DNA of 44,648 nt from Candidatus Heimdallarchaeota archaeon (lineage in GTDB: Archaea; Asgardarchaeota; Heimdallarchaeia; Heimdallarchaeales; Heimdallarchaeaceae), in the NCBI GenBank assembly GCA_030668825.1, contig DAOVET010000012.1, positions 1-44,648 on the forward strand. Direction: 5' to 3'. Below the pieces are notes generated by a model that made no database searches, was not told where the DNA came from, and worked only from the letters and a program-made list of their open reading frames with translations. The stretch's first letter is position 1, and each line of letters opens with the position of its first letter. Below, one piece after another: positions 26,213 through 36,019 of the stretch. The translations under genes were made by a program, and so were the position numbers.

Positions 26213-26944
26213 TCAACTTACTTCCCATTCAGTTGTTAACATCTGATCTTTATCTTCTGGAACAATTGGATCCACATAATAAGCTATTTTCCCAGCCCAC
26301 CTTACTTCTCCTGTTCTATAGATAGGATTAGATCGTATATTTCTCAAGGTAGATACAGGTATGTTATATTTCAGACTCAGGGTTTTTAGTGATGCAAAAG
26401 GATTATCAAACTCACCGAAAAGACGTCTAATAAGACCCATTTTACTTTCATCGGCTATTAGGCTTCCCCCCTCATCAACTGCATATCCAAATGGAGGACG
26501 AGACATAACTTTTTTATCATTTATTCTTCGTAACATACCTTTGTATCGTTTCTCTCTATATTTCTCTAACTCCATTTCACCAAAAAGATCCTTTATTCTA
26601 GCAAATGCTTTGTTATCTTCATCATCTAAACAAATGATTGATATTTCTTTTTTCTTGAGCATAACTCGAATATATCCTAGAATATCTACATCTCGTGATA
26701 AACGGTCTCTAGATTGACTCCACAACTCATCAAATTCATTTTCTTCAACCATTCGTAGAATCTCTATGAATCCTTCTCTATATTCCGGATCACTATCACC
26801 TGGAACATCCTCGTCTTTGATTATTTTGATGATCTCCCTATCTCCAGCTTGATAGATTTTTGCTGTAACGTCATCAATTTGTGTTTCTAAACCTGATTCT
26901 TGATCAGCTGTTGAGGTCCTAACATAAACAATACAACGAATCAT
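26213..26944 (-). CDS. Serine recombinase (resolvase catalytic domain plus short recombinase domain)
   Basis: YVRTST with the catalytic Ser, REGF, RDRLSR, RPPFGY, and NPIY.G. Confidence 0.9.
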   Translation of the reverse strand: MIRCIVYVRTSTADQESGLETQIDDVTAKIYQAGDREIIKIIKDEDVPGDSDPEYREGFIEILRMVEENEFDELWSQSRDRLSRDVDILGYIRVMLKKKEISIICLDDEDNKAFARIKDLFGEMELEKYREKRYKGMLRRINDKKVMSRPPFGYAVDEGGSLIADESKMGLIRRLFGEFDNPFASLKTLSLKYNIPVSTLRNIRSNPIYRTGEVRWAGKIAYYVDPIVPEDKDQMLTTEWEVS

Positions 26945-26947
26945 ATT

Positions 26948-26983
26948 AACCTTGTTGATAAGGTTGTAACCTTAACTAAAGGT
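26948..26983. promoter_or_regulatory. Putative recombinase binding/crossover (res-like) site
   Basis: Four alternating half-sites AACCTT, AAGGTT, AACCTT, AAGGT. The central perfect IR TAAGGTT-GT-AACCTTA (26959-26974) lies immediately upstream of the recombinase start. Confidence 0.6.
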
Positions 26984-27008
26984 CTGTAATCCCGAGAAAA
27001 TATCCATG

Positions 27009-27458
27009 CTACTTTTCATCAAAAACTACTTGCTCTACTAATCTTTTGTCTTGTTTCTTTGTAAGATACCTATGAATAAAATATTCTACTTGTTCTATAG
27101 CTTCATCATAGTCTAAGGATAAATCTTTCCCTGTTTCTCTTAATTCAATTAATTTTAGTCTTAACAAACCCATAGTAAGAGCAATAACTCTGTTTCCTAC
27201 ATATAGTTCATTGGCTTTTTGTCTGATTAGTGCATATGTTCCGAACAAATTGGAATATTCCATACTTAACTCGGTGAAAATCTCCTCTTCTTGTTTTCTT
27301 TTAGCATTAAGATCCTCCATATTCCAATTAATGATCTCTTCGGGGATAAAATCAAAGTAGTAGAGATAATATGCAAGGTCACTCGCAAGAATTTCTTCAT
27401 CCTCACAAGGGATTTTATCCTTAAATTTAACATTATATTGAGTTGTACCTATTTTCAT
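27009..27458 (-). CDS. Hypothetical helical protein
   Basis: 149 aa ORF coupled to the upstream gene by a TAATG stop/start overlap. Confidence 0.7.
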   Translation of the reverse strand: MKIGTTQYNVKFKDKIPCEDEEILASDLAYYLYYFDFIPEEIINWNMEDLNAKRKQEEEIFTELSMEYSNLFGTYALIRQKANELYVGNRVIALTMGLLRLKLIELRETGKDLSLDYDEAIEQVEYFIHRYLTKKQDKRLVEQVVFDEK

Positions 27459-27841
27459 TACATGCCACCCTCCTCAAAGCCTTTAACGATCTGTTCAATG
27501 TTGATGATTTTTGCATAATCTTGTTTATATTCTTTGATTGCATCCTCTAAGATTCCAACATGATTCTTTATTTTAGTAAGGTCTTCTCTTCTTTCTTTTA
27601 GTCTAGAAGTAAATTCTGCATATTTCATAATGTCTAGAAAAAAAGTTCTAAATTGCAACTCAGGATTTTCTTGTTGATTTTTCACCCAAGCTTTGTAAAT
27701 AATATGCATCACATCTCTATATCGAGCTAGTAATACTTTTTCAGGAATGTTATTCTTTTGAGCATAATTCTTAATACGCCTACTTTGAGTAATGTTAAAA
27801 GTAAGCTGCTTAATCTGTTTCATTTCCTTCAACAAAATCAT
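27458..27841 (-). CDS. Hypothetical helical/coiled-coil protein
   Basis: 127 aa ORF co-oriented between the GTPase and the recombinase. Confidence 0.7.
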   Translation of the reverse strand: MILLKEMKQIKQLTFNITQSRRIKNYAQKNNIPEKVLLARYRDVMHIIYKAWVKNQQENPELQFRTFFLDIMKYAEFTSRLKERREDLTKIKNHVGILEDAIKEYKQDYAKIINIEQIVKGFEEGGM

Positions 27842-27881: not shown

Positions 27882-28577
27882 TCAACTATATGCCTGCATA
27901 GCAAGATAATTGAAAATGATTGTTAAGGGTAATTCATAGCAATTTGCATCCAAATTAGTGGTTTCATAGAAAACAAGTTCCCTATCAACAATTGAAGAAA
28001 AAACTATTCTCTCAGCTGTTTCTTTTCCTAAATATACCCCTTTATCTCGAAGATCAGATTTATTGATGAAAATAATAATAGGAATATTTCTATTTTTTCT
28101 AACTTCTTCCATCTGAACCATTTCTAAATAATGAACAATTTTCTCTAAAGAAGAAATATTTGTACCATCGGCCATTATAATAACAAGATCGGAGCCTTTT
28201 ATTACAATATCTTGCATAAAATCAAATCTGTCTTGCCCAGGCAAGTCATTCATAATTACTTGAAACACAGAATCGATTGATTCAAAATCAAGCGTCTCTA
28301 TCTGATCATATTTCTTCAAAATAACTTTGTTGAAACGTGTTAATATTAGTACTGAATTTACAACATTCAGTGAGATTGTTGTTGTACTAGAAGTGAAATT
28401 GTTATACTTTAAGGGAGTGAAATCTAGATTATTCCCAATTTCTCTAAATATTCTTCGTGCAACATCGTTTTTTTCAATATTACCAAAAAGTGCTTCCAAA
28501 AATGTTGTCTTTCCTGAACCAGTAGTTCCTAAGATGGTAATTTTCTTCATTACTAATGGTTCCAACAAGTTCATCAA
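27882..28577 (-). CDS. Small GTPase (MglA/Arf-like)
   Basis: G1 GTTGSGKT, G2 STTTISLN, G3 DLPGQDRFDFM, G4 NKSD, G5 ETT. Confidence 0.88.
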   Translation of the reverse strand: MMNLLEPLVMKKITILGTTGSGKTTFLEALFGNIEKNDVARRIFREIGNNLDFTPLKYNNFTSSTTTISLNVVNSVLILTRFNKVILKKYDQIETLDFESIDSVFQVIMNDLPGQDRFDFMQDIVIKGSDLVIIMADGTNISSLEKIVHYLEMVQMEEVRKNRNIPIIIFINKSDLRDKGVYLGKETAERIVFSSIVDRELVFYETTNLDANCYELPLTIIFNYLAMQAYS

Positions 28578-28738: not shown

Positions 28739-29785
28739 TTATTCAACAAAATAGATTGATTGTCTAGCATCTCTTAGATGAGGTCTTTGATTAACGACCC
28801 CTTTCTCTTTGAGAATAGATAGAGCGTTTCGAACAGTTCTATTGGGTAATCCTGTACTTTCAATCAATTCTTTCTGTGTCATTTCTCCTTCAGTTAAAAG
28901 CAATTTAAAAATATATTTTGCAGAAGGAGGAACACGTTCTAAAGATCTAAGATCTAATTCAACTAATCTATTTCTTAGTTTAGCAAGTATGTTTTTCTTA
29001 GCTTGAAATCGTATTATTCTAGCTGTTGATGACGATTTTCTAACCAATACTTCCTCATCGATACCTATTCTTATTTGACCATCAATTATTGCTTCCAGGG
29101 GAGATCTTGAACGCAAGTTTACCAATTTAATCTCTGAATCAATTGGAACTACCATAGGAATGTGTTCTTTATTCAATGGATTAACTGGAACTATAATCAA
29201 AACATCTGGGTTACCAAAAGCTATGGGACCTCCTGAGGAGAGAGCATAACCTGTACTTCCTAGAGAGGTAGACACAATTAGTCCATCAGCTCTACCTCTA
29301 TAAAGCTGATTCTTATCTATTATTAACGTATAATTCATTAAAAGTGCTGAATCTTTTGGGAATATAGCTATCTCATTTAGTGCAGGAATTGGCATAACAT
29401 TCCCAGAATCTAGAAAAACTACTCTATGATAATTATCGACATCATATTTTCGATTTAAGATACTTGTTAAGGTATACTGAAGATTAACTGGACTTATTTC
29501 AGTAAAGAAACTTACACTTTCAGACGACGCAGCAACAACAGGAATAGATGATTTTGAAAGAAAAATAGCTCTAAGAAATGTACCTGCATCGCCTACTGAA
29601 ATAATGCAATTTGCTTTTTGTGTGGAGAAACCTTTCATCTGATTTTCCCAATTGTTTTCATTCAATTCTTCATCTTCGAATTCAATGATTTCAACTTCTG
29701 GATCAATTTCAAGAAGCGTTCCCTTAATTATTTCAGCAAATTTTTGCGAGATAATATCATTGGACACATATAGAGCCAAAATCAT
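28739..29785 (-). CDS. NAD-kinase-fold protein with degenerate catalytic motif, fused to a C-terminal winged HTH
   Basis: ALNE and ADGLIVSTSLGSTGYALSSGGP retained; GGDGT replaced by GDAGT. C-terminal PPSAK...TQKEL..STGLPNRTVRNALSILKEKG...DARQSIY is a MarR-like wHTH. Confidence 0.9.
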   Translation of the reverse strand: MILALYVSNDIISQKFAEIIKGTLLEIDPEVEIIEFEDEELNENNWENQMKGFSTQKANCIISVGDAGTFLRAIFLSKSSIPVVAASSESVSFFTEISPVNLQYTLTSILNRKYDVDNYHRVVFLDSGNVMPIPALNEIAIFPKDSALLMNYTLIIDKNQLYRGRADGLIVSTSLGSTGYALSSGGPIAFGNPDVLIIVPVNPLNKEHIPMVVPIDSEIKLVNLRSRSPLEAIIDGQIRIGIDEEVLVRKSSSTARIIRFQAKKNILAKLRNRLVELDLRSLERVPPSAKYIFKLLLTEGEMTQKELIESTGLPNRTVRNALSILKEKGVVNQRPHLRDARQSIYFVE

Positions 29786-29946
29786 GGTTTCATCTACATT
29801 CCTTACTTGACTATTAATGATTAATGTTTATTTATATTTATCCACAGAAAACCAAACTTAAGATGTTTTTAACATACACATCACCAATACATAAATGAAC
29901 TTAGAAGCATTCAAACATACTTCTTCAATCTTTTTCTTTAAGAATA

Positions 29947-29965
29947 ATAGGCAATTATTGCTTAT
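29947..29965. promoter_or_regulatory. Imperfect palindrome, candidate operator
   Basis: atagGCAATtATTGCttat in the divergent NADK-HTH/nadA spacer. Confidence 0.35.
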
Positions 29966-29982
29966 ACTATGCTAGAAATTGC

Positions 29983-30024
29983 TTCAATAGTGTATTTTTC
30001 TTGAGTTTCAAGACTTCTATTGAA
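29983..30024. promoter_or_regulatory. Nested inverted repeats upstream of the nadA promoter, candidate operator
   Basis: ttcaatag 29983-29990 / ctattgaa 30017-30024 enclosing tcttga-gtt-tcaaga 29999-30013. Confidence 0.35.
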
Positions 30025-30059
30025 AAATTTAGTTCAATTTTGACCTTAATCAAACAGTC

Positions 30060-30067
30060 TTTAAATA
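30060..30067 (+). promoter_or_regulatory. TATA box of nadA-nadC
   Basis: TTTAAATA 28 nt upstream of ATG 30096. Confidence 0.55.
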
Positions 30068-30095
30068 CAATTCATAAAAGGGTAGTCCGGTTGAG

Positions 30096-31121
30096 ATGGT
30101 GGTTGTAGAAGAAACTCCTGAAATAAGAAGTGAGGAGTTTGGTTTACTAGAGGAAGAAGTGGGTAGGTTATTTAATAAATTGAATCCTCTAGGATGGACT
30201 AAAAATGCTTGTGAATCAATTGCTCCCTTCACATATAGAATCAACCAACTAAAGAAAGAGAAGGGGTTTAAGATACTTGCTCATTCCTATCAAACAGCTG
30301 ATATTATTTTTGGAATTGCAGATATTGTTGGTGATTCGCTTGCACTTGCTAAAAAAGCTACCGAACTTAAAGAGAAACGAATTCTTTTCTGTGGAGTAGA
30401 TTTTATGGCAGAATCTGTGAAAATTCTTAATCCAGAGAAACTAATTTTAGTTCCAGCAAAAGGAAGGGATTGTACTCTAGCAGATTCAATAACAGGTGAA
30501 GATGTTAGAAAACTTAAGGAAGAATATCCAGGAGTTCCTGTTGTTTGTTATGTCAATACAAATGCAGATGTAAAAGCTGAGTCTGATATTTGTTGTACCT
30601 CAGCTAATGCACAAAAAATTATAGAAGGTTTGGAAGAAGATACTATTGTATTTATTCCTGATGAGAATATGGGAAATAATTTAGCAAAAATTACTGGAAA
30701 AAAGATTATAACTTGGCCCGGTTCCTGTAGAACTCATAACGCTCTCTCAATTAAAAGATTAGAGAAGTTAATTCCTGATGAGAACACCAAAACTTTTGCT
30801 CATCTTGAATGCCGACCTAAAATCATTAATTCTGTAGATTTTGCAGGTGGAACAGGTGACATGCACAGGTATACAACCAAAGTTCCTAAAGGTGAAAGGG
30901 TTCTTTTCTTAACTGAACAAGGGTTCATCGACAGAATGAAAGTTGAATATCCTGATGTTCAGTTTGAAGATAGTAAAATGATATGCATTAGCATGAAAAG
31001 AAATGACCTTTTCTCGACTTGGAAAGCTCTCGAAAATCCAACAGATGATAATGTTATTGAATTAGATGAAGAGATTCGTAAAAGAGCTTTCAGAGCTGTT
31101 AGCAATATGCTGAAATACTAA
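30096..31121 (+). CDS. nadA: Quinolinate synthase
   Basis: LAHSYQ, GDSLALA, FCGVDFMAE, three cluster Cys (CTLA, SCRTH, CISMK), YVNT, CCTSANA. Confidence 0.95.
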   Translation: MVVVEETPEIRSEEFGLLEEEVGRLFNKLNPLGWTKNACESIAPFTYRINQLKKEKGFKILAHSYQTADIIFGIADIVGDSLALAKKATELKEKRILFCGVDFMAESVKILNPEKLILVPAKGRDCTLADSITGEDVRKLKEEYPGVPVVCYVNTNADVKAESDICCTSANAQKIIEGLEEDTIVFIPDENMGNNLAKITGKKIITWPGSCRTHNALSIKRLEKLIPDENTKTFAHLECRPKIINSVDFAGGTGDMHRYTTKVPKGERVLFLTEQGFIDRMKVEYPDVQFEDSKMICISMKRNDLFSTWKALENPTDDNVIELDEEIRKRAFRAVSNMLKY

Positions 31122-31139
31122 TCAGAGAGTTAGAAAAGG

Positions 31140-31976
31140 ATGATACCCCTAGTTTTAGTAGATGAAGATATTAAAAAGTGGATAGAGGAAGATATACCTT
31201 ACTGGGATGTTACAACTTCACTTCTTCCTTGTATAGATGCTAAAGGAAAGATCTATTCAAAACAAGAAGGAGTTGTTGCTGGTCTCGTCTTCATAAAAAG
31301 AATCTTCGAGTTTTTAGGGTCAGAACTTGATATATTGGTAAAAGAGGGAGAGAAAGTATCAAAGAAAACAGCTGTTGCTTCTTTCAATGGAAATATACAC
31401 AATCTGCTGCAAGCTGAAAGAGTATCTTTGAATATTCTTGGAAGATTATCAGGAATTGCTACACAAACAGCTAAAATGATTGAAATAGCTCACGAAGTAA
31501 ATCCTCAATTGAAAATCTGTGCAACAAGAAAATTAGTTCCTGGTTTAGGGAAATATGATAAATATGCTGTTGTTGCTGGTGGAGGAGATACTCACAGGTT
31601 CAATCTATCTGATATGATTCTTCTTAAAGAAAATCATCTTAGAGGTTTCAGTTCAATCACTGAGGCAGTTAAAAAAGCTCAAGAGACCACTAGCTTCAGT
31701 AAGAAAATTGAGGTTGAGGTTCAAAATGAAGGGCAAGCTATGGAAGCAGCTAAAGCTGGTGTGGATATAATCATGTTAGATAATTTTTCTCTCCAACTAA
31801 TAAAGCTGACAATTCCAAAAATCAAGTCGATTAAGAAGGATGTGTTAATCGAATTATCAGGTAATATTAATCTTGAGAATCTACAAGAATTTGCATTAGA
31901 GGGAGTAGACCTAATATCCTCAGGCTCACTTACGCACTCAGTTAAGAATTTTGATTATACTATGTTGATAGAGTAG
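31140..31976 (+). CDS. nadC: Nicotinate-nucleotide pyrophosphorylase (quinolinate phosphoribosyltransferase)
   Basis: LSGIAT, TRK, HRFNLSD, LKENH, EVEV, IMLDN, GSLTHS. Confidence 0.95.
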   Translation: MIPLVLVDEDIKKWIEEDIPYWDVTTSLLPCIDAKGKIYSKQEGVVAGLVFIKRIFEFLGSELDILVKEGEKVSKKTAVASFNGNIHNLLQAERVSLNILGRLSGIATQTAKMIEIAHEVNPQLKICATRKLVPGLGKYDKYAVVAGGGDTHRFNLSDMILLKENHLRGFSSITEAVKKAQETTSFSKKIEVEVQNEGQAMEAAKAGVDIIMLDNFSLQLIKLTIPKIKSIKKDVLIELSGNINLENLQEFALEGVDLISSGSLTHSVKNFDYTMLIE

Positions 31977-33502: not shown

Positions 33503-36019
33503 TTACTCGTAATCTCGAATACTAAAGATTATTTTCGCTCCTTGTGTATAATCTCCCTCGATTCTATCTTCTATTCTTATAGAACCTTCATACGCTTTAA
33601 CAATCCTATAGATGAACATCATGCCCAATCCCCTTATTCTTTGTCCTGACTGGAAGCTATCAAGAATCTGTTGTTTTCTTTCATCAGAAATACCCTTTCC
33701 ATTATCTTCAATAACAATTTCCCAGAAATCCTTTTGTTGATCTTTAATTCTTGAAGCTGAAACAATAAAGCTTATTTTACTATTTTTCGCAGATTGTATT
33801 GAATTTTCAAAAATATTTGTGAATACATCTTCAAGGAACTTGTTTGCAGAAATTCTTATTTCAGTGTCAAAATTCTTTTTCAAACTAATATTGTGATTAG
33901 GATAGGCTTGTTCAAGAGTAGTTATAGCTTTGTTAATATATGTTTCTAATTTTCTTTTCACAAAAGGTTCGGCTGTTTTTTCTAAACTGCTCAGTTTTCG
34001 AATTCTGTCTTTAACTGTATTGGCTCTTTTAAGTATACGTATGGACTGTTCTATAAGCTTTGTAGATTCTTCAAAATCACCGTTTTGCATTTTTGCTAGT
34101 TCTAAGTAACCAAGGATAGCTTGGTGATAGTTACTTAAATCATGTGTAAAGAGATCCATAGCAAGCTCCGCTAAATGTATTGATTCTTTTTCTTTTCTTA
34201 TTGATTCATCTAGTTTAAGAGCCATATCCTCAAATGCAAAATAGACCTCGCTTACTTCTTTCGTCAACCTTTTAGATAGAACGAAGCTAACACTAAAGTC
34301 TCCTTCTGATATTGCTTTTATTCCTTTAAGAAGTGTAACTGCATAATTTGAAAAATTAAAGGCTATGTATAATGCAACAGCGCCTATAATTGCTATAATA
34401 GAAATTGAAGCAATTATTAAAATTATCTCTAAATATCTCAGATTATTTCTAAGTGTTGCTAATATTGGATCGAAATCTTCCATCACTAAATCTAATGGAG
34501 AAAAGTGAAGCATAAACCAAGGAATAGAGAAGATAGGGTGATACAATACTATATAGACTGTATCATTATGAGTCACAATTCTATAGCCTGATTGAAAATT
34601 AAGTACAGCATTGACACAAAATTGAAGTTCAGGATTTTCATAATCAGCCATATTTTCAGTTGGAAAGTCTTCTTTAGGTTTTCGTGAAACATTTGCAGCA
34701 TAATGAGGAGACAATAATATCTCTTTATCTGAATTTATAATCAGGGAATAATCATTTTCTGTGATGTCTAGCTCAAGTGTGTTCATCAGGTAATCAAGGT
34801 TCAAATCTAGAACCCAAAATCCTTGAAAATCATTCGTATCATTATAAACTGCTTGTCCTAAAGATATGAAAATATTTTGGTGCACATAATCAACACCTAA
34901 ATCTGAAAAATGACTTTCCATTCCTTTATTTGTTGATTCCTCTTCAGCTTGAAGCAACTCATTGTACCAAGGTCTCCGCTTCCAATCAAAATCTGCTGAA
35001 AGTCCTATTGAAAAAGAGCTACCATAATCAGGAAACCAGGGAAAAATCAAGATATAATTTGGAGTAGCGAAATAGACCCATTGTAACATCGGGTTCAATA
35101 AAGGAATCATAAAATCATACAGTTCCTTAAGTCTAGTATCAATATATCCAGAAGCTGTACCATTATATTTCCCTTTTATCAATCCAGTAAATTGCCCAGA
35201 TAATGAGCCATTAATACAACCTTCTATTCTTGATTTTGAACCAGAAGAAACTATAGAACAATTGTTATTTGTATAATGCTCTTTTACTAGAAAGAATGTA
35301 TCCAAATAGTCTGGTTCAAGTTGTGAGAGTTCTTCATCCAAACCTGTTGGAAAGGTGTAGAGACCTAGATTCCATTGTTCTAAGAATAGATTGCTGAAAG
35401 AGTTGGAATAATTTGTTTGATAATATTCTGTTATATTAATCATAAAAACTTCGTTATTCTTATGGGCATAAATAAAGACACTGCTCTGGTTAGAAAGTTC
35501 GCCCTCAAATGTTGCATTAATCTGTAAATAAAACTCACCTGATATATTTAGACGAGTCTCTATATCACCAAAAACACAACAACCTGTTGTTTCAAGATCA
35601 TTAATTCCATTTTTATCATGATCATAATATCCCAGGTTATTCTCTCTATCAACTTTCATATCTATTATACCATCAATGTAAGCATACTCGTCTGTACTGT
35701 TAAAATTTAGAAAATCATGTTGATAAAGAGTACTTGCTTCTTCTGAAAAAAATTGATTGACAATAGTCAAAGCAGTGTTATTTAATTCGGTTTTCATATT
35801 TCCCACAAGCTGGTCAAAAGATTGAACAAATTGATATGTTGAAATATCCATGCTCTGTATTTTTACCTCTAAATATTCCTCTGAAGCTTCCTTGGATATG
35901 CTTTGTAACCTTAGTTCCATTAACAGTATGATTGTTCCATTTATCAATAGCGTCATAACAAATAGAATTAGAGAAATGTACACTGCAAGGCGTCTAGCTA
36001 GACGTGTTCTCTTAACCAT
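33503..36019 (-). CDS. Membrane sensor histidine kinase (Cache-like, HAMP, HisKA, HATPase)
   Basis: Two TM helices, FDWKRRPWY Cache motif, HAMP (GDFS...EV), H-box FTHDLSN, N-box NIFENS, DNGKGI, GLGM. Confidence 0.9.
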   Translation of the reverse strand: MVKRTRLARRLAVYISLILFVMTLLINGTIILLMELRLQSISKEASEEYLEVKIQSMDISTYQFVQSFDQLVGNMKTELNNTALTIVNQFFSEEASTLYQHDFLNFNSTDEYAYIDGIIDMKVDRENNLGYYDHDKNGINDLETTGCCVFGDIETRLNISGEFYLQINATFEGELSNQSSVFIYAHKNNEVFMINITEYYQTNYSNSFSNLFLEQWNLGLYTFPTGLDEELSQLEPDYLDTFFLVKEHYTNNNCSIVSSGSKSRIEGCINGSLSGQFTGLIKGKYNGTASGYIDTRLKELYDFMIPLLNPMLQWVYFATPNYILIFPWFPDYGSSFSIGLSADFDWKRRPWYNELLQAEEESTNKGMESHFSDLGVDYVHQNIFISLGQAVYNDTNDFQGFWVLDLNLDYLMNTLELDITENDYSLIINSDKEILLSPHYAANVSRKPKEDFPTENMADYENPELQFCVNAVLNFQSGYRIVTHNDTVYIVLYHPIFSIPWFMLHFSPLDLVMEDFDPILATLRNNLRYLEIILIIASISIIAIIGAVALYIAFNFSNYAVTLLKGIKAISEGDFSVSFVLSKRLTKEVSEVYFAFEDMALKLDESIRKEKESIHLAELAMDLFTHDLSNYHQAILGYLELAKMQNGDFEESTKLIEQSIRILKRANTVKDRIRKLSSLEKTAEPFVKRKLETYINKAITTLEQAYPNHNISLKKNFDTEIRISANKFLEDVFTNIFENSIQSAKNSKISFIVSASRIKDQQKDFWEIVIEDNGKGISDERKQQILDSFQSGQRIRGLGMMFIYRIVKAYEGSIRIEDRIEGDYTQGAKIIFSIRDYE

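What the first reader, a model, noticed from the sequence alone, without database searches (positions are those of the whole stretch)
28739..31976. Pseudo-NAD-kinase/winged-helix fusion divergent from nadA-nadC: candidate new NAD-sensing transcription factor
Seen: the NADK signature GGDGT reads GDAGT, so the Asp position is Ala (codon 29585-29587), and the G-x-L-G-F motif has decayed to SESVSFF. The NAD-contacting motifs (LNE, DG...ST..GSTGY..S.GGP) are intact. A complete MarR-like wHTH is fused at the C-terminus, and the gene sits head-to-head with the de novo NAD genes nadA-nadC. Established: the GGDG Asp is needed for NADK catalysis, and the characterised NAD regulators (NadR, NiaR, NrtR, NadQ, Rex) do not use a NADK-fold sensor. 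Inference: an enzyme-derived NAD(P) sensor that feedback-regulates NAD synthesis. NADK-HTH fusions may exist in other archaea; I cannot check this here.
Basis: partly seen in the sequence, partly recalled or inferred. Interest (0 to 1): 0.92.

Follow-up and report, generated by a model that had tools for sequence, protein, structure and literature searches.

The report
NAD-kinase-derived regulator of archaeal NAD synthesis
This gene encodes a NAD-kinase look-alike that has lost its catalytic residue and gained a DNA-binding domain, and comparison across archaea indicates it is a previously undescribed transcription factor that controls the first genes of NAD synthesis.

Summary
ORF 28739-29785(-) is a 348-aa NAD-kinase-fold protein. 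Its GGDGT motif reads GDAGT (Asp to Ala, codon 29585-29587), and it has a C-terminal winged helix. It lies head-to-head with nadA-nadC.

The genome also encodes a canonical 279-aa NADK with GGDGT. The fusion belongs to a distinct, single-origin archaeal family:
- It is present in 70 of 251 sampled genomes of the window's phylum and 95 of 301 of a second archaeal phylum.
- Most members have a degenerate kinase motif (58 of 77 fusions, against 5 of 71 unfused NADKs).
- Members are often divergent from nadA.

The new finding is a 13-bp palindrome, GGCAA-N3-TTGCC (window 29950-29962). It recurs in nadA promoters across both phyla and tracks the fusion gene. With at most one mismatch, it is found upstream of nadA as follows:

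| Phylum | Fusion-bearing genomes | Fusion-less genomes |
|---|---|---|
| Window's phylum | 19/20 | 1/40 |
| Second phylum | 33/40 | 0/20 |

The second-phylum count includes 20/20 genomes where nadA is unlinked to the regulator.

Best reading: a dead-enzyme NAD(P) sensor and transcription factor for de novo NAD synthesis. The ligand and the sign of regulation are inferred, not shown. Eight literature searches found no description of it.

The parts
28739..29785 (-). Regulator gene: NADK-fold sensor domain plus C-terminal winged helix (348 aa; stop codon 28739-28741)
   Evidence: ORF; Pfam and NCBIfam hits; AF2 model and Foldseek; family alignment A1
29579..29596 (-). Remnant of the GGDGT kinase motif, residues 64-69 VGDAGT. 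Ala67 (29585-29587) replaces the catalytic Asp.
   Evidence: Alignments to canonical NADKs. Close relatives read GDTGT, GGTGT, GSTGT, GHTGT, so neither position 66 nor 67 keeps an acid.
29225..29383 (-). Conserved NAD-site motifs of the NADK C-terminal domain (res 135-187: LNE, ADG, GSTGY, SSGGP). This stretch is also the predicted dimer interface.
   Evidence: N137, D167 and G176 are invariant; S177, T178, Y180, S183, G185, G186 and P187 are >=90% conserved in 43 family members. The profile aligns these to solved NADKs. Dimer interface res 156-217.
28742..28933 (-). Winged helix-turn-helix DNA-binding domain (res 285-348), family signature PPSAKxIxKxLxxEGxMTQKEhIxxTxLPxRTVRxAL...LRDxRQxxY
   Evidence: HTH_24, TrmB and MarR_2 hits; helices 287-299, 304-311, 315-327 and strands 331-335, 343-347 in the model; conserved across phyla
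29786..30095 (.). 310-bp divergent control region between the regulator and nadA
   Evidence: genus alignment of 19 spacers; no Rfam family
29950..29962 (.). Operator O1, GGCAATTATTGCT (palindrome GGCAA-N3-TTGCC with one mismatch). It ends 134 nt upstream of the nadA ATG.
   Evidence: Nearly invariant block in the genus. The same palindrome occurs in other families and in a second phylum. It is the only exact AGGCAANNNTTGCTT in about 310 kb of intergenic DNA of the genome, and one of 2 intergenic hits among 31 hits at <=1 mismatch in 2.76 Mb.
30033..30045 (.). O2-like element TTCAATTTTGACC. It is degenerate (4 mismatches to the palindrome; 2 in some congeners). It sits 50 nt upstream of the nadA ATG, where other lineages carry their promoter-proximal operator.
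   Evidence: Conserved block TTTGxCC in the genus alignment. TGCAATTTTGGCC at the same place in L024 and L026. Site-to-ATG distances of 48-51 nt in other lineages. Assignment as an operator is inference.
30060..30067 (+). Putative nadA TATA box TTTAAATA, 28 nt before the ATG
   Evidence: CTTTAAATA is invariant or nearly so in 19 genus spacers. Promoter role is inferred from archaeal promoter knowledge, not measured.
29827..29836 (-). Putative TATA box of the regulator gene (TATAAATAAA on the minus strand), 42-51 nt upstream of its ATG
   Evidence: Conserved TTATTTATA block in the genus alignment; inferred
30096..31121 (+). nadA, quinolinate synthase (341 aa), predicted target
   Evidence: PF02445 316 bits; NF006878 311.7 bits, above its cut-off
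31140..31976 (+). nadC, quinolinate phosphoribosyltransferase (278 aa), co-directional with nadA and 18 nt downstream
   Evidence: TIGR00078 307.9 bits

Best explanation
The gene encodes a transcription factor built from a NAD kinase that no longer works as a kinase. The NADK fold keeps its NAD-binding C-terminal domain and dimer interface. It has lost the catalytic Asp and the glycine-rich ATP loop, so it most likely only binds a nicotinamide-adenine nucleotide (NAD+ or NADP(H)). The C-terminal winged helices of a dimer (possibly a tetramer) bind the palindrome GGCAA-N3-TTGCC in the nadA control region. In the window this is O1 at 29950-29962, plus a degenerate promoter-proximal copy at 30033-30045. 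Ligand occupancy changes DNA binding and so sets transcription of nadA-nadC, and probably of the regulator's own gene, according to the NAD pool.

Shown computationally:
- the fold and the motif loss;
- a separate housekeeping NADK in the genome;
- a single-origin family;
- conserved divergent nadA linkage;
- the operator and its co-occurrence with the protein.

Inferred:
- that this protein is the one that binds the palindrome;
- the ligand;
- the sign of regulation.

On the sign, I lean about 55:35 towards an activator that the end product switches off, because the site always lies upstream of the nadA TATA box. The alternative is an NAD-dependent repressor.
For: Fold and motifs.

Separate canonical NADK in the same genome (279 aa, GGDGT). 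A second NADK-type gene accompanies the fusion in 93 of 95 fusion-bearing genomes of the second phylum and in 61 of 70 of the window's phylum.

Family: fusions fall on one side of a 99%-supported split in a tree built from the NADK domain alone, with the GGDG columns removed (148 rows). Motif state is 19 GGDG, 44 Asp-only and 14 no-Asp among 77 fusions, against 66 of 71 GGDG in unfused NADKs.

Linkage: nadA is divergent next to the gene in 18 of 19 genus genomes, in Heimdallarchaeum aukensis and a Thorarchaeota MAG, in families f10, f18 and f27, and in 14 of 30 loci of the second phylum.

Operator:
- It is a conserved block in the genus and the same palindrome recurs in unalignable spacers of other lineages. 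Family f10 has two copies exactly 29 bp apart.
- Rarity: 31 hits at <=1 mismatch in 2.76 Mb of the own genome, only 2 of them intergenic.
- Prediction tests on nadA upstream regions: in the window's phylum 19 of 20 fusion-bearing against 1 of 40 fusion-less genomes. This includes an unlinked second nadA copy with an exact site, and a within-genus contrast (G091 with both, G110 with neither).
- In the second phylum: 20 of 20 with nadA unlinked to the regulator, 13 of 20 other fusion-bearing, and 0 of 20 fusion-less. None of these second-phylum regions was used to define the motif.
- Both the wHTH and the operator are nearly invariant across the two phyla.

Dimer: the homodimer model scores ipSAE 0.43 against 0.00 for the best of 3 controls. 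That mark was reached by 20 of 30 solved homodimers and 1 of 23 solved monomers. Runs agree in >=80% of contacts and partner pLDDT is 80. NADK dimers are solved, so this pass may be from memory.
Against: There is no experiment: DNA binding, ligand and loss of kinase activity are all unmeasured.

The palindrome was first spotted by eye. Genomes in the tests were picked by me from tables, and relatives are not independent.

In the window, O1 lies 98 nt upstream of the nadA TATA box, which is unusual for a simple archaeal repressor. The promoter-proximal O2-like element has 4 mismatches.

Eight of 60 fusion-bearing genomes tested have no site at <=1 mismatch. G365 also has none.

The family also occurs where no nadA was found: G094 (100% complete) and family f23 (0 of 7). 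So nadA is not its only possible target.

In three f23 genomes (87-91% complete) the fusion, with GRDRD or GRDGD, is the only NAD_kinase_C match. Two congeners do have a 280-289-aa NADK. Asp-only variants may therefore still be kinases.

No operator was found near the genome's aspartate dehydrogenase gene.

Only HTH_24 passes its Pfam cut-off for the C-terminal domain.
Confidence: 0.75

Rival explanations
1. Bifunctional enzyme-regulator: the protein is still an active NAD kinase that also binds DNA, as BirA, NadR and RbkR combine catalysis and repression.
For: The whole NADK fold and the NAD-site motifs are kept. A basal subclade of the family keeps GGDG and GxNCGxxGFL (19 of 77). In G047 the GGDGT-intact fusion is the only canonical-type NADK found; the other hit is a 372-aa GGDGTARD-type paralogue. 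Three f23 genomes show only the fusion.
Against: In the window protein and its whole clade the Asp position is Ala or Thr, and the neighbouring position varies (D/G/S/H), so no compensating acid is conserved. The second glycine-rich motif is gone. The genome has a canonical NADK. NCBIfam NADK equivalog scores are far below cut-off (144 against 326). That the GGDG Asp is needed for catalysis is recalled knowledge, not tested here.
Confidence: 0.12
2. The protein is a NADK-derived DNA-binding protein, but the GGCAA-N3-TTGCC palindrome is bound by some other factor. The nadA adjacency would then reflect shared metabolism rather than direct control.
For: Binding was never measured. Presence of the fusion and of the palindrome both follow phylogeny, so co-occurrence could be shared ancestry. 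The site lies well upstream of the core promoter in several lineages.
Against: The palindrome is present at nadA in fusion-bearing genomes of two phyla and missing in 59 of 60 fusion-less ones, including a within-genus contrast (G091 against G110). The fusion is the only conserved divergent neighbour. Conservation of the wHTH matches conservation of the site. Loci where the fusion is not next to nadA lack the site upstream of the regulator (18 of 20).
Confidence: 0.08
3. The sensor responds to something other than the NAD(P) pool, for example a pathway intermediate such as quinolinate or NaAD, ATP or polyphosphate, or the redox ratio NADH/NAD+ as in Rex.
For: The ligand was not tested. NADKs are known to be affected by NADH, NADPH and, in Bacillus subtilis, quinolinate (recalled, not checked here). 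The ATP loop is remodelled rather than deleted.
Against: The residues kept invariant are those of the NAD site of the C-terminal domain. The ATP-loop glycines and the Asp are the parts that decayed.
Confidence: 0.2

Closest known systems
NAD kinase (NadK/PpnK; Pfam PF01513 + PF20143; e.g. PDB 1SUW, 1U0T, 7QVS)
   Same: Two-domain fold, NAD-site motifs (NE, DG, GSTxY, GGP) and the dimer interface through the C-terminal beta domain.
   Different: The GGDG Asp is Ala and the GxNxGxLGFL motif is lost. A 64-residue winged helix is added, and no solved NADK chain covers it. It forms a separate clade from housekeeping NADKs and coexists with one.
RbkR, the archaeal riboflavin kinase / winged-helix regulator (PMC5397151: passages and abstract read)
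   Same: An archaeal kinase of a cofactor pathway fused to a wHTH that controls the genes of that pathway. It was found by the same comparative-genomics logic, and the enzyme domain doubles as the sensor.
   Different: RbkR is reported as an active enzyme with an N-terminal HTH (passage). Here the HTH is C-terminal, the fold is NADK, the pathway is NAD, and in this clade the catalytic residue is lost.
NrtR (Nudix-related regulator of NAD metabolism; PMC2330246) and NiaR, NadR, NadQ, Rex
   Same: They work alike in outline: an enzyme-like or nucleotide-binding sensor joined to an HTH, controlling nadA/B/C and salvage genes, often autoregulated from a divergent promoter.
   Different: There is no sequence relation: no Nudix, 3H, NMNAT/RNK or Rossmann-Rex hit in Pfam or NCBIfam. 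All of these are bacterial, whereas this family was found only in archaea in my searches.
MarR/TrmB/ArsR-type winged-helix regulators
   Same: wHTH topology and a short palindromic operator suited to a dimer.
   Different: Dimerisation is predicted through the NADK domain, not through MarR-type terminal helices. The wHTH signature is specific to this family. Only HTH_24 passes its cut-off.

Membership tests
NAD kinase (EC 2.7.1.23) | Two-domain NADK fold (PF01513 + PF20143) | tested here: met
   36.3 and 73.9 bits, both above cut-off. Foldseek TM 0.77-0.86 on the target to solved NADKs.
NAD kinase (EC 2.7.1.23) | GGDG(T) motif with the catalytic Asp | tested here: not met
   The motif reads VGDAGT, with Ala67 at the Asp position. 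The clade reads GDTGT, GGTGT or GSTGT.
NAD kinase (EC 2.7.1.23) | Second glycine-rich motif GxNxGxLGFL | tested here: not met
   AASSESVSFFTE, against GVNCGKVGFLTE in the genome's own NADK.
NAD kinase (EC 2.7.1.23) | NAD-site motifs of the C-terminal domain (NE, DG, GSTxY..S.GGP) | tested here: met
   LNE and ADGLIVSTSLGSTGYALSSGGP, invariant or nearly so in 43 members.
NAD kinase (EC 2.7.1.23) | Score above curated equivalog cut-offs | tested here: not met
   The best NCBIfam NADK model scores 144.4 bits against a cut-off of 326.
NAD kinase (EC 2.7.1.23) | Kinase activity on NAD | not testable with these tools
   Needs an enzyme assay.
Winged-helix transcription factor (HTH_24/TrmB/MarR-like) | wHTH domain | tested here: met
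   HTH_24 23.5 bits against a cut-off of 21.9. TrmB scores 24.7 against 25.6 and MarR_2 19.8 against 27, both below. The model shows three helices plus a beta wing at pLDDT 86-95.
Winged-helix transcription factor (HTH_24/TrmB/MarR-like) | Cognate palindromic operator in the promoters of target genes | tested here: met
   GGCAA-N3-TTGCC at nadA promoters co-occurs with the protein: 52 of 60 fusion-bearing against 1 of 60 fusion-less genomes. This is comparative inference; physical binding was not tested.
Winged-helix transcription factor (HTH_24/TrmB/MarR-like) | Oligomer that presents two recognition helices | tested here: inconclusive
   The homodimer model scores 0.43 against a best control of 0.00. 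The mark was reached by 20 of 30 solved dimers and 1 of 23 monomers, and the pass may be from memory of NADK dimers. The placing of the wHTH pair was not scored.
Known NAD regulators (NadR, NiaR, NrtR, NadQ, Rex) | Their sensor domains (NMNAT/RNK, 3H, Nudix, Rossmann) | tested here: not met
   No such family appears among the Pfam or NCBIfam hits at E<=0.01.
Enzyme-derived cofactor regulators of archaea (RbkR-like, by analogy only) | Pathway enzyme fold fused to wHTH, with a regulon of the same pathway | tested here: met
   This is the same logic with different folds, so it is an analogue, not a homologue.

The most novel reading that the evidence does not exclude
A pan-archaeal family of transcription factors derived from NAD kinase forms the first NAD regulon described for Archaea, Asgard archaea included. 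It arose once as a kinase-wHTH fusion, and a still GGDG-intact, probably bifunctional subclade survives. It then repeatedly lost catalysis to become a pure NAD(P) sensor. It recognises one operator, GGCAA-N3-TTGCC, conserved across phyla, at nadA and perhaps also at salvage or transport genes. Paired sites (29 bp apart in one family, 83 bp apart in the window) may be bridged by a NADK-type tetramer.
Probability: 0.65. Interest if true: 0.85.

Novelty: new variant of a known kind. Interest (0 to 1): 0.8.

Why it matters
How archaea regulate NAD synthesis is, as far as my eight literature searches show, undescribed. All characterised NAD regulators (NadR, NiaR, NrtR, NadQ, Rex) are bacterial.

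This family would give a concrete, testable answer for a large part of the domain: about 28-32% of sampled genomes in two phyla, plus DPANN-labelled members. The answer comes with a defined protein, a defined 13-bp operator and a defined target.

It is also a clean natural series of enzyme-to-sensor evolution, from GGDG-intact through Asp-only to no-Asp forms, on a fold whose NAD site is well known from crystal structures. A scaffold like this might serve as a NAD(P) biosensor.

On the practical side, these genes are annotated 'NAD(+)/NADH kinase' in public records. For this clade that annotation is probably wrong, and it inflates NADK counts in metabolic reconstructions.

Tried and rejected
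- **Riboswitch or RNA element in the spacer.** No Rfam match at E<=1 in 29700-30200.
- **Other operator copies in the own genome.** 31 hits at <=1 mismatch, only 2 intergenic. With the genus form AGGCAANNNTTGCTT, the nadA site is the only exact intergenic hit, and the four 1-mismatch intergenic hits were not followed up. There is no site near the aspartate dehydrogenase gene on C105. TIGR00551 (nadB) gave only below-cut-off flavoprotein matches.
- **The search for related loci on genome contigs.** The chosen peptide pattern also fits ordinary NADKs, so only 3 of 80 loci were fusions (L040-L042). I switched to the genome search.
- **Expression.** No RNA holder is listed. The two coded runs are 'RNA? 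probably DNA' contigs at depth 2-4 and show nothing about starts or strands.
- **Alternative targets where nadA is not adjacent.** There is a NAPRTase-like gene beside the fusion in L123 and an MFS PF00083 transporter divergent in L147. Only 2-3-mismatch sites occur there, so I made no claim.
- **sigma-70 promoter scan.** Not used, because archaeal promoters are not covered.
- **Literature.** Eight searches found no paper on a NADK-HTH regulator. I read passages of PMC2330246, PMC5397151, PMC8305020, PMC6675116 and PMC2330245. PMC2738131 is not held. Supplements were not opened. Subscription journals and arCOG or InterPro notes could still hold a mention.
- **Complex prediction.** Only the homodimer was run. 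No ligand or DNA co-fold was possible.

Full report
**The object**

ORF 28739-29785 on the minus strand encodes 348 residues. Pfam places the NAD kinase N-domain at residues 34-114 (36.3 bits) and the NAD kinase C-domain at 136-259 (73.9 bits). A winged helix sits at about 291-345. HTH_24 scores 23.5 bits, above its cut-off, while TrmB, MarR_2, ArsR and others fall just below theirs.

NCBIfam's NADK equivalogs match only weakly, best 144 bits against a cut-off of 326.

The AlphaFold2 model built on a 43-member family alignment has mean pLDDT 89.8. It shows a NADK fold, a disordered linker at 262-277 and a helix-helix-helix-wing domain. Foldseek's best hits are solved NAD kinases (7qvs, 4hao, 1u0t, 1suw, 1yt5) with target-normalised TM of 0.77-0.86. 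A profile search of PDB sequences aligns only profile positions 10-259, so no solved chain carries the C-terminal domain.

- The protein reads VGDAGT where kinases read xGGDGT. The gap-free alignment puts Ala67 (codon 29585-29587) at the Asp position.
- Relatives in the same clade read GDTGT, GGTGT, GSTGT and GHTGT. Position 66 is therefore free to vary and position 67 is never acidic.
- The second glycine-rich motif is AASSESVSFFTE, against GVNCGKVGFLTE in the genome's own kinase.
- The C-domain motifs LNE, ADG, GSTGY and SSGGP are intact. They are among the invariant or >=90% conserved columns of the family.

That the GGDG Asp is catalytically required is textbook knowledge that I recall. 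I did not test it.

**Is it the only NADK?**

No. The genome (2.76 Mb, 138 contigs, 90.6% complete) has four NAD_kinase_C matches:
- this gene;
- a 279-aa canonical NADK with GGDGT and NCGKVGFL on contig C78;
- two 371- and 388-aa paralogues with GGDGTARD that belong to another NADK-like subfamily.

**The family**

A word-indexed search found full-length relatives labelled Heimdallarchaeota, Thorarchaeota, Vulcanisaeta, Woesearchaeota and Parvarchaeota. Their sources mostly name them 'NAD(+)/NADH kinase'. An exhaustive phmmer search found 70 clusters (at 50% identity) with E<=1e-30, nearly all aligned through to residue ~347.

With the family profile, full-length matches occur in:
- 70 of 251 sampled genomes of the window's phylum (69 at E<=1e-100 plus G038), spread over families f1, f3, f10, f12, f18, f19, f23 and f27;
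- 95 of 301 sampled genomes of a second archaeal phylum, reached through a Nitrososphaerales locus.

I built a FastTree tree of 148 rows from the NADK domain only, with the GGDG columns removed. Before building I dropped rows under 250 aa and two N-terminally truncated rows. All fusions fall on one side of a 99%-supported split. With them sit eight short unfused rows, several of which look truncated. A basal subclade is mostly GGDG-intact and a larger subclade is mostly degenerate. The window protein sits in a no-Asp branch.

Motif counts, on 151 sequences of at least 240 aa, one of them with an intermediate C-terminus:

| Class | n | GGDG | Asp only | No Asp | Unreadable |
|---|---|---|---|---|---|
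| Fusions | 79 | 19 | 44 | 14 | 2 |
| Unfused NADKs | 71 | 66 | 4 | 1 | 0 |

So motif decay goes with the fusion. The family as a whole is nevertheless not a pseudo-kinase.

A second NADK-type gene accompanies the fusion in 93 of 95 genomes of the second phylum and in 61 of 70 of the window's phylum.

There is a counter-case. Three f23 genomes (87-91% complete) show only the fusion, with GRDRD or GRDGD. Two congeners also have a 280-289-aa NADK.

**Linkage to nad genes**

| Sample | nadA divergent next to the fusion |
|---|---|
| Genus genomes that have the fusion | 18 of 19 (nadA-nadC) |
| Heimdallarchaeum aukensis; a Thorarchaeota MAG | both |
| Families f10, f18, f27 | yes |
| Families f12, f19 | no |
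| Second-phylum loci | 14 of 30 |

The one genus exception, G023, has nadA-nadC on another contig, still with the operator.

**The operator**

An alignment of 19 genus spacers shows a few sharply conserved blocks in otherwise drifting AT-rich DNA:
- a TATA-like block near each gene;
- a block AGGCAA-N3-TTGCTT;
- a block TTTGxCC just upstream of the nadA TATA;
- a further imperfect palindrome nearer the regulator.

Spacers of other families and of the second phylum cannot be aligned to these, yet they carry the same 13-bp palindrome, GGCAA-N3-TTGCC. In family f10 there are two copies exactly 29 bp apart, one abutting each TATA box.

In the window the site is GGCAATTATTGCT at 29950-29962. In the whole 2.76-Mb genome there are 31 hits at <=1 mismatch, of which 2 are intergenic. 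The genus form has no other exact intergenic copy.

Because I found the motif by eye, I then used it as a prediction. I scanned 701-bp regions (600 bp upstream plus 100 bp into the NadA Pfam match) that I chose from the result tables.

| Phylum | Set | Regions with a site (<=1 mismatch) |
|---|---|---|
| Window's phylum | Fusion-less, spread over 15 families | 1 of 40 |
| Window's phylum | Fusion-bearing | 19 of 20 |
| Second phylum | Fusion-bearing, nadA on another contig or far from the regulator | 20 of 20 (16 exact) |
| Second phylum | Other fusion-bearing | 13 of 20 |
| Second phylum | Fusion-less | 0 of 20 |

Points about these tests:
- In the window's phylum, 11 of the 20 fusion-bearing regions came from genomes or copies not used to define the motif, and 10 of those 11 have a site.
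- The single miss there is G079 of family f19.
- An unlinked second nadA copy in G066 has an exact site.
- Within one genus, G091 has both the fusion and the site while G110 has neither.
- No second-phylum region had been used to define the motif.
- As a further control, 18 of 20 loci where the fusion is not next to nadA have no site upstream of the regulator.

Relatives are not independent, so I give counts, not P values.

The near-invariance of the wHTH (..LP.RTVR.AL..LRD.RQ..Y) across both phyla matches the near-invariance of the site.

**How it probably works**

- **Dimer.** A NADK-type dimer is predicted through residues 156-217. The ipSAE is 0.43 against 0.00 for the best of 3 controls. 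That mark was reached by 20 of 30 solved homodimers and 1 of 23 monomers. Contacts agree in >=80% of runs and partner pLDDT is 80. The pass is possibly from memory of solved NADK dimers. Such a dimer would present two winged helices to the palindrome.
- **Ligand.** The invariant residues are those of the NAD site, while the ATP loop and the Asp decayed. A nicotinamide-adenine nucleotide is therefore the likeliest ligand. This is inference.
- **Sign of regulation.** It is open. The site always lies upstream of the nadA TATA box:
  - about 12 nt upstream in f10 and in the nadA-linked group of the second phylum;
  - about 50 nt upstream in the unlinked group of the second phylum, directly after the stop codon of the preceding gene;
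  - 98 nt upstream in the window, with a degenerate copy in the promoter-proximal place.

In archaea such upstream sites are more typical of activators. This is recalled from LysM, Ptr2 and TrmBL1, not tested here. In f10, however, the other copy abuts the regulator's own BRE/TATA, which would fit autorepression. I lean towards an activator inactivated by the end product (about 55%) over an NAD-dependent repressor (about 35%).

**What it is not**

No Nudix, 3H, NMNAT/RNK or Rex-type domain was found, so it is unrelated to NrtR, NiaR, NadR, NadQ and Rex. No Rfam family matches the spacer.

**Comparison with the literature**

Eight full-text searches returned no paper on a NADK-HTH regulator or on an archaeal NAD regulon.

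The closest described systems are analogues:
- RbkR, an archaeal riboflavin kinase / wHTH regulator (PMC5397151; abstract and passages read);
- bacterial NrtR and NiaR (PMC2330246 and PMC2330245; passages read).

A paper on NADK evolution does not mention HTH fusions in the passages I searched (PMC6675116).

**Verdict**

The finding also extends to a conserved operator and a family-wide regulon.

It is a new variant of a known kind, an enzyme-derived cofactor regulator. It uses a sensor fold not used by any characterised NAD regulator, in a domain of life where NAD regulation is undescribed.

Binding, ligand, loss of activity and sign of regulation all need the bench.

Noticed in passing
window 29874-29895: A second conserved element lies in the regulator-nadA spacer of the genus. 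It reads ATACACATCACCAATACATAAA here and is a near-perfect palindrome, TATGTATTG-N-CAATACATA, in some congeners. It sits about 40-60 bp upstream of the regulator's putative TATA box and is unrelated to GGCAA-N3-TTGCC. It may be a site for another factor.
   Followed up: partly
own genome C76 (L003 808-1923) and C2 (L004 766-1932): Two further NADK-like paralogues of 371 and 388 aa with GGDGTARD. The 371-aa C76 copy, the one scanned, also has a DAGK_cat hit. They form a different subfamily from both the canonical NADK and the fusion. A 372-aa and a 383-aa counterpart occur in G047 and G120.
   Followed up: partly
L123 2659-3870 (genome G094, no nadA found, 100% complete): Where nadA is missing, the fusion gene (motif GGAAN) lies beside a 403-aa nicotinate/quinolinate phosphoribosyltransferase-like gene (NAD salvage). 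The region upstream of that gene has two weak (3-mismatch) palindrome-like sites 30 bp apart.
   Followed up: partly
L147 2603-3957 (Nitrososphaerales MAG contig): The divergent neighbour of the fusion is an MFS transporter of Pfam PF00083, the family to which the bacterial niacin permease NiaP belongs (PMC2330245). Only a 2-mismatch site lies in the spacer.
   Followed up: partly
L246 (G066 contig C34) and G130 contig C23: Two f10 genomes carry a second, unlinked nadA copy. The G066 copy has an exact GGCAAGAATTGCC upstream. The G130 copy was not fetched.
   Followed up: partly
window 27882-28577 (-): A 231-aa Ras/Roc/Arf-like small GTPase lies directly downstream of the regulator. It keeps this place in 15 of the 19 fusion-bearing genus loci (and is doubled in L021).
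   Followed up: no
window 26213-27841 (-): A serine recombinase (Resolvase N-terminal domain, 64.7 bits) is followed by two small ORFs with no Pfam match. This may be a small mobile or integrated element next to the GTPase gene.
   Followed up: no
window 33503-36019 (-): An 838-aa membrane sensor histidine kinase with a dCache_1 hit below its cut-off (31.1 vs 45 bits) and an HATPase_c domain.
   Followed up: no
family f10 spacers (e.g. L140, L042, L144): The two operator copies are always exactly 29 bp apart, start to start. In the window, O1 and the O2-like element are 83 bp apart, about eight helical turns. This may point to cooperative or looped binding by a higher oligomer.
   Followed up: no
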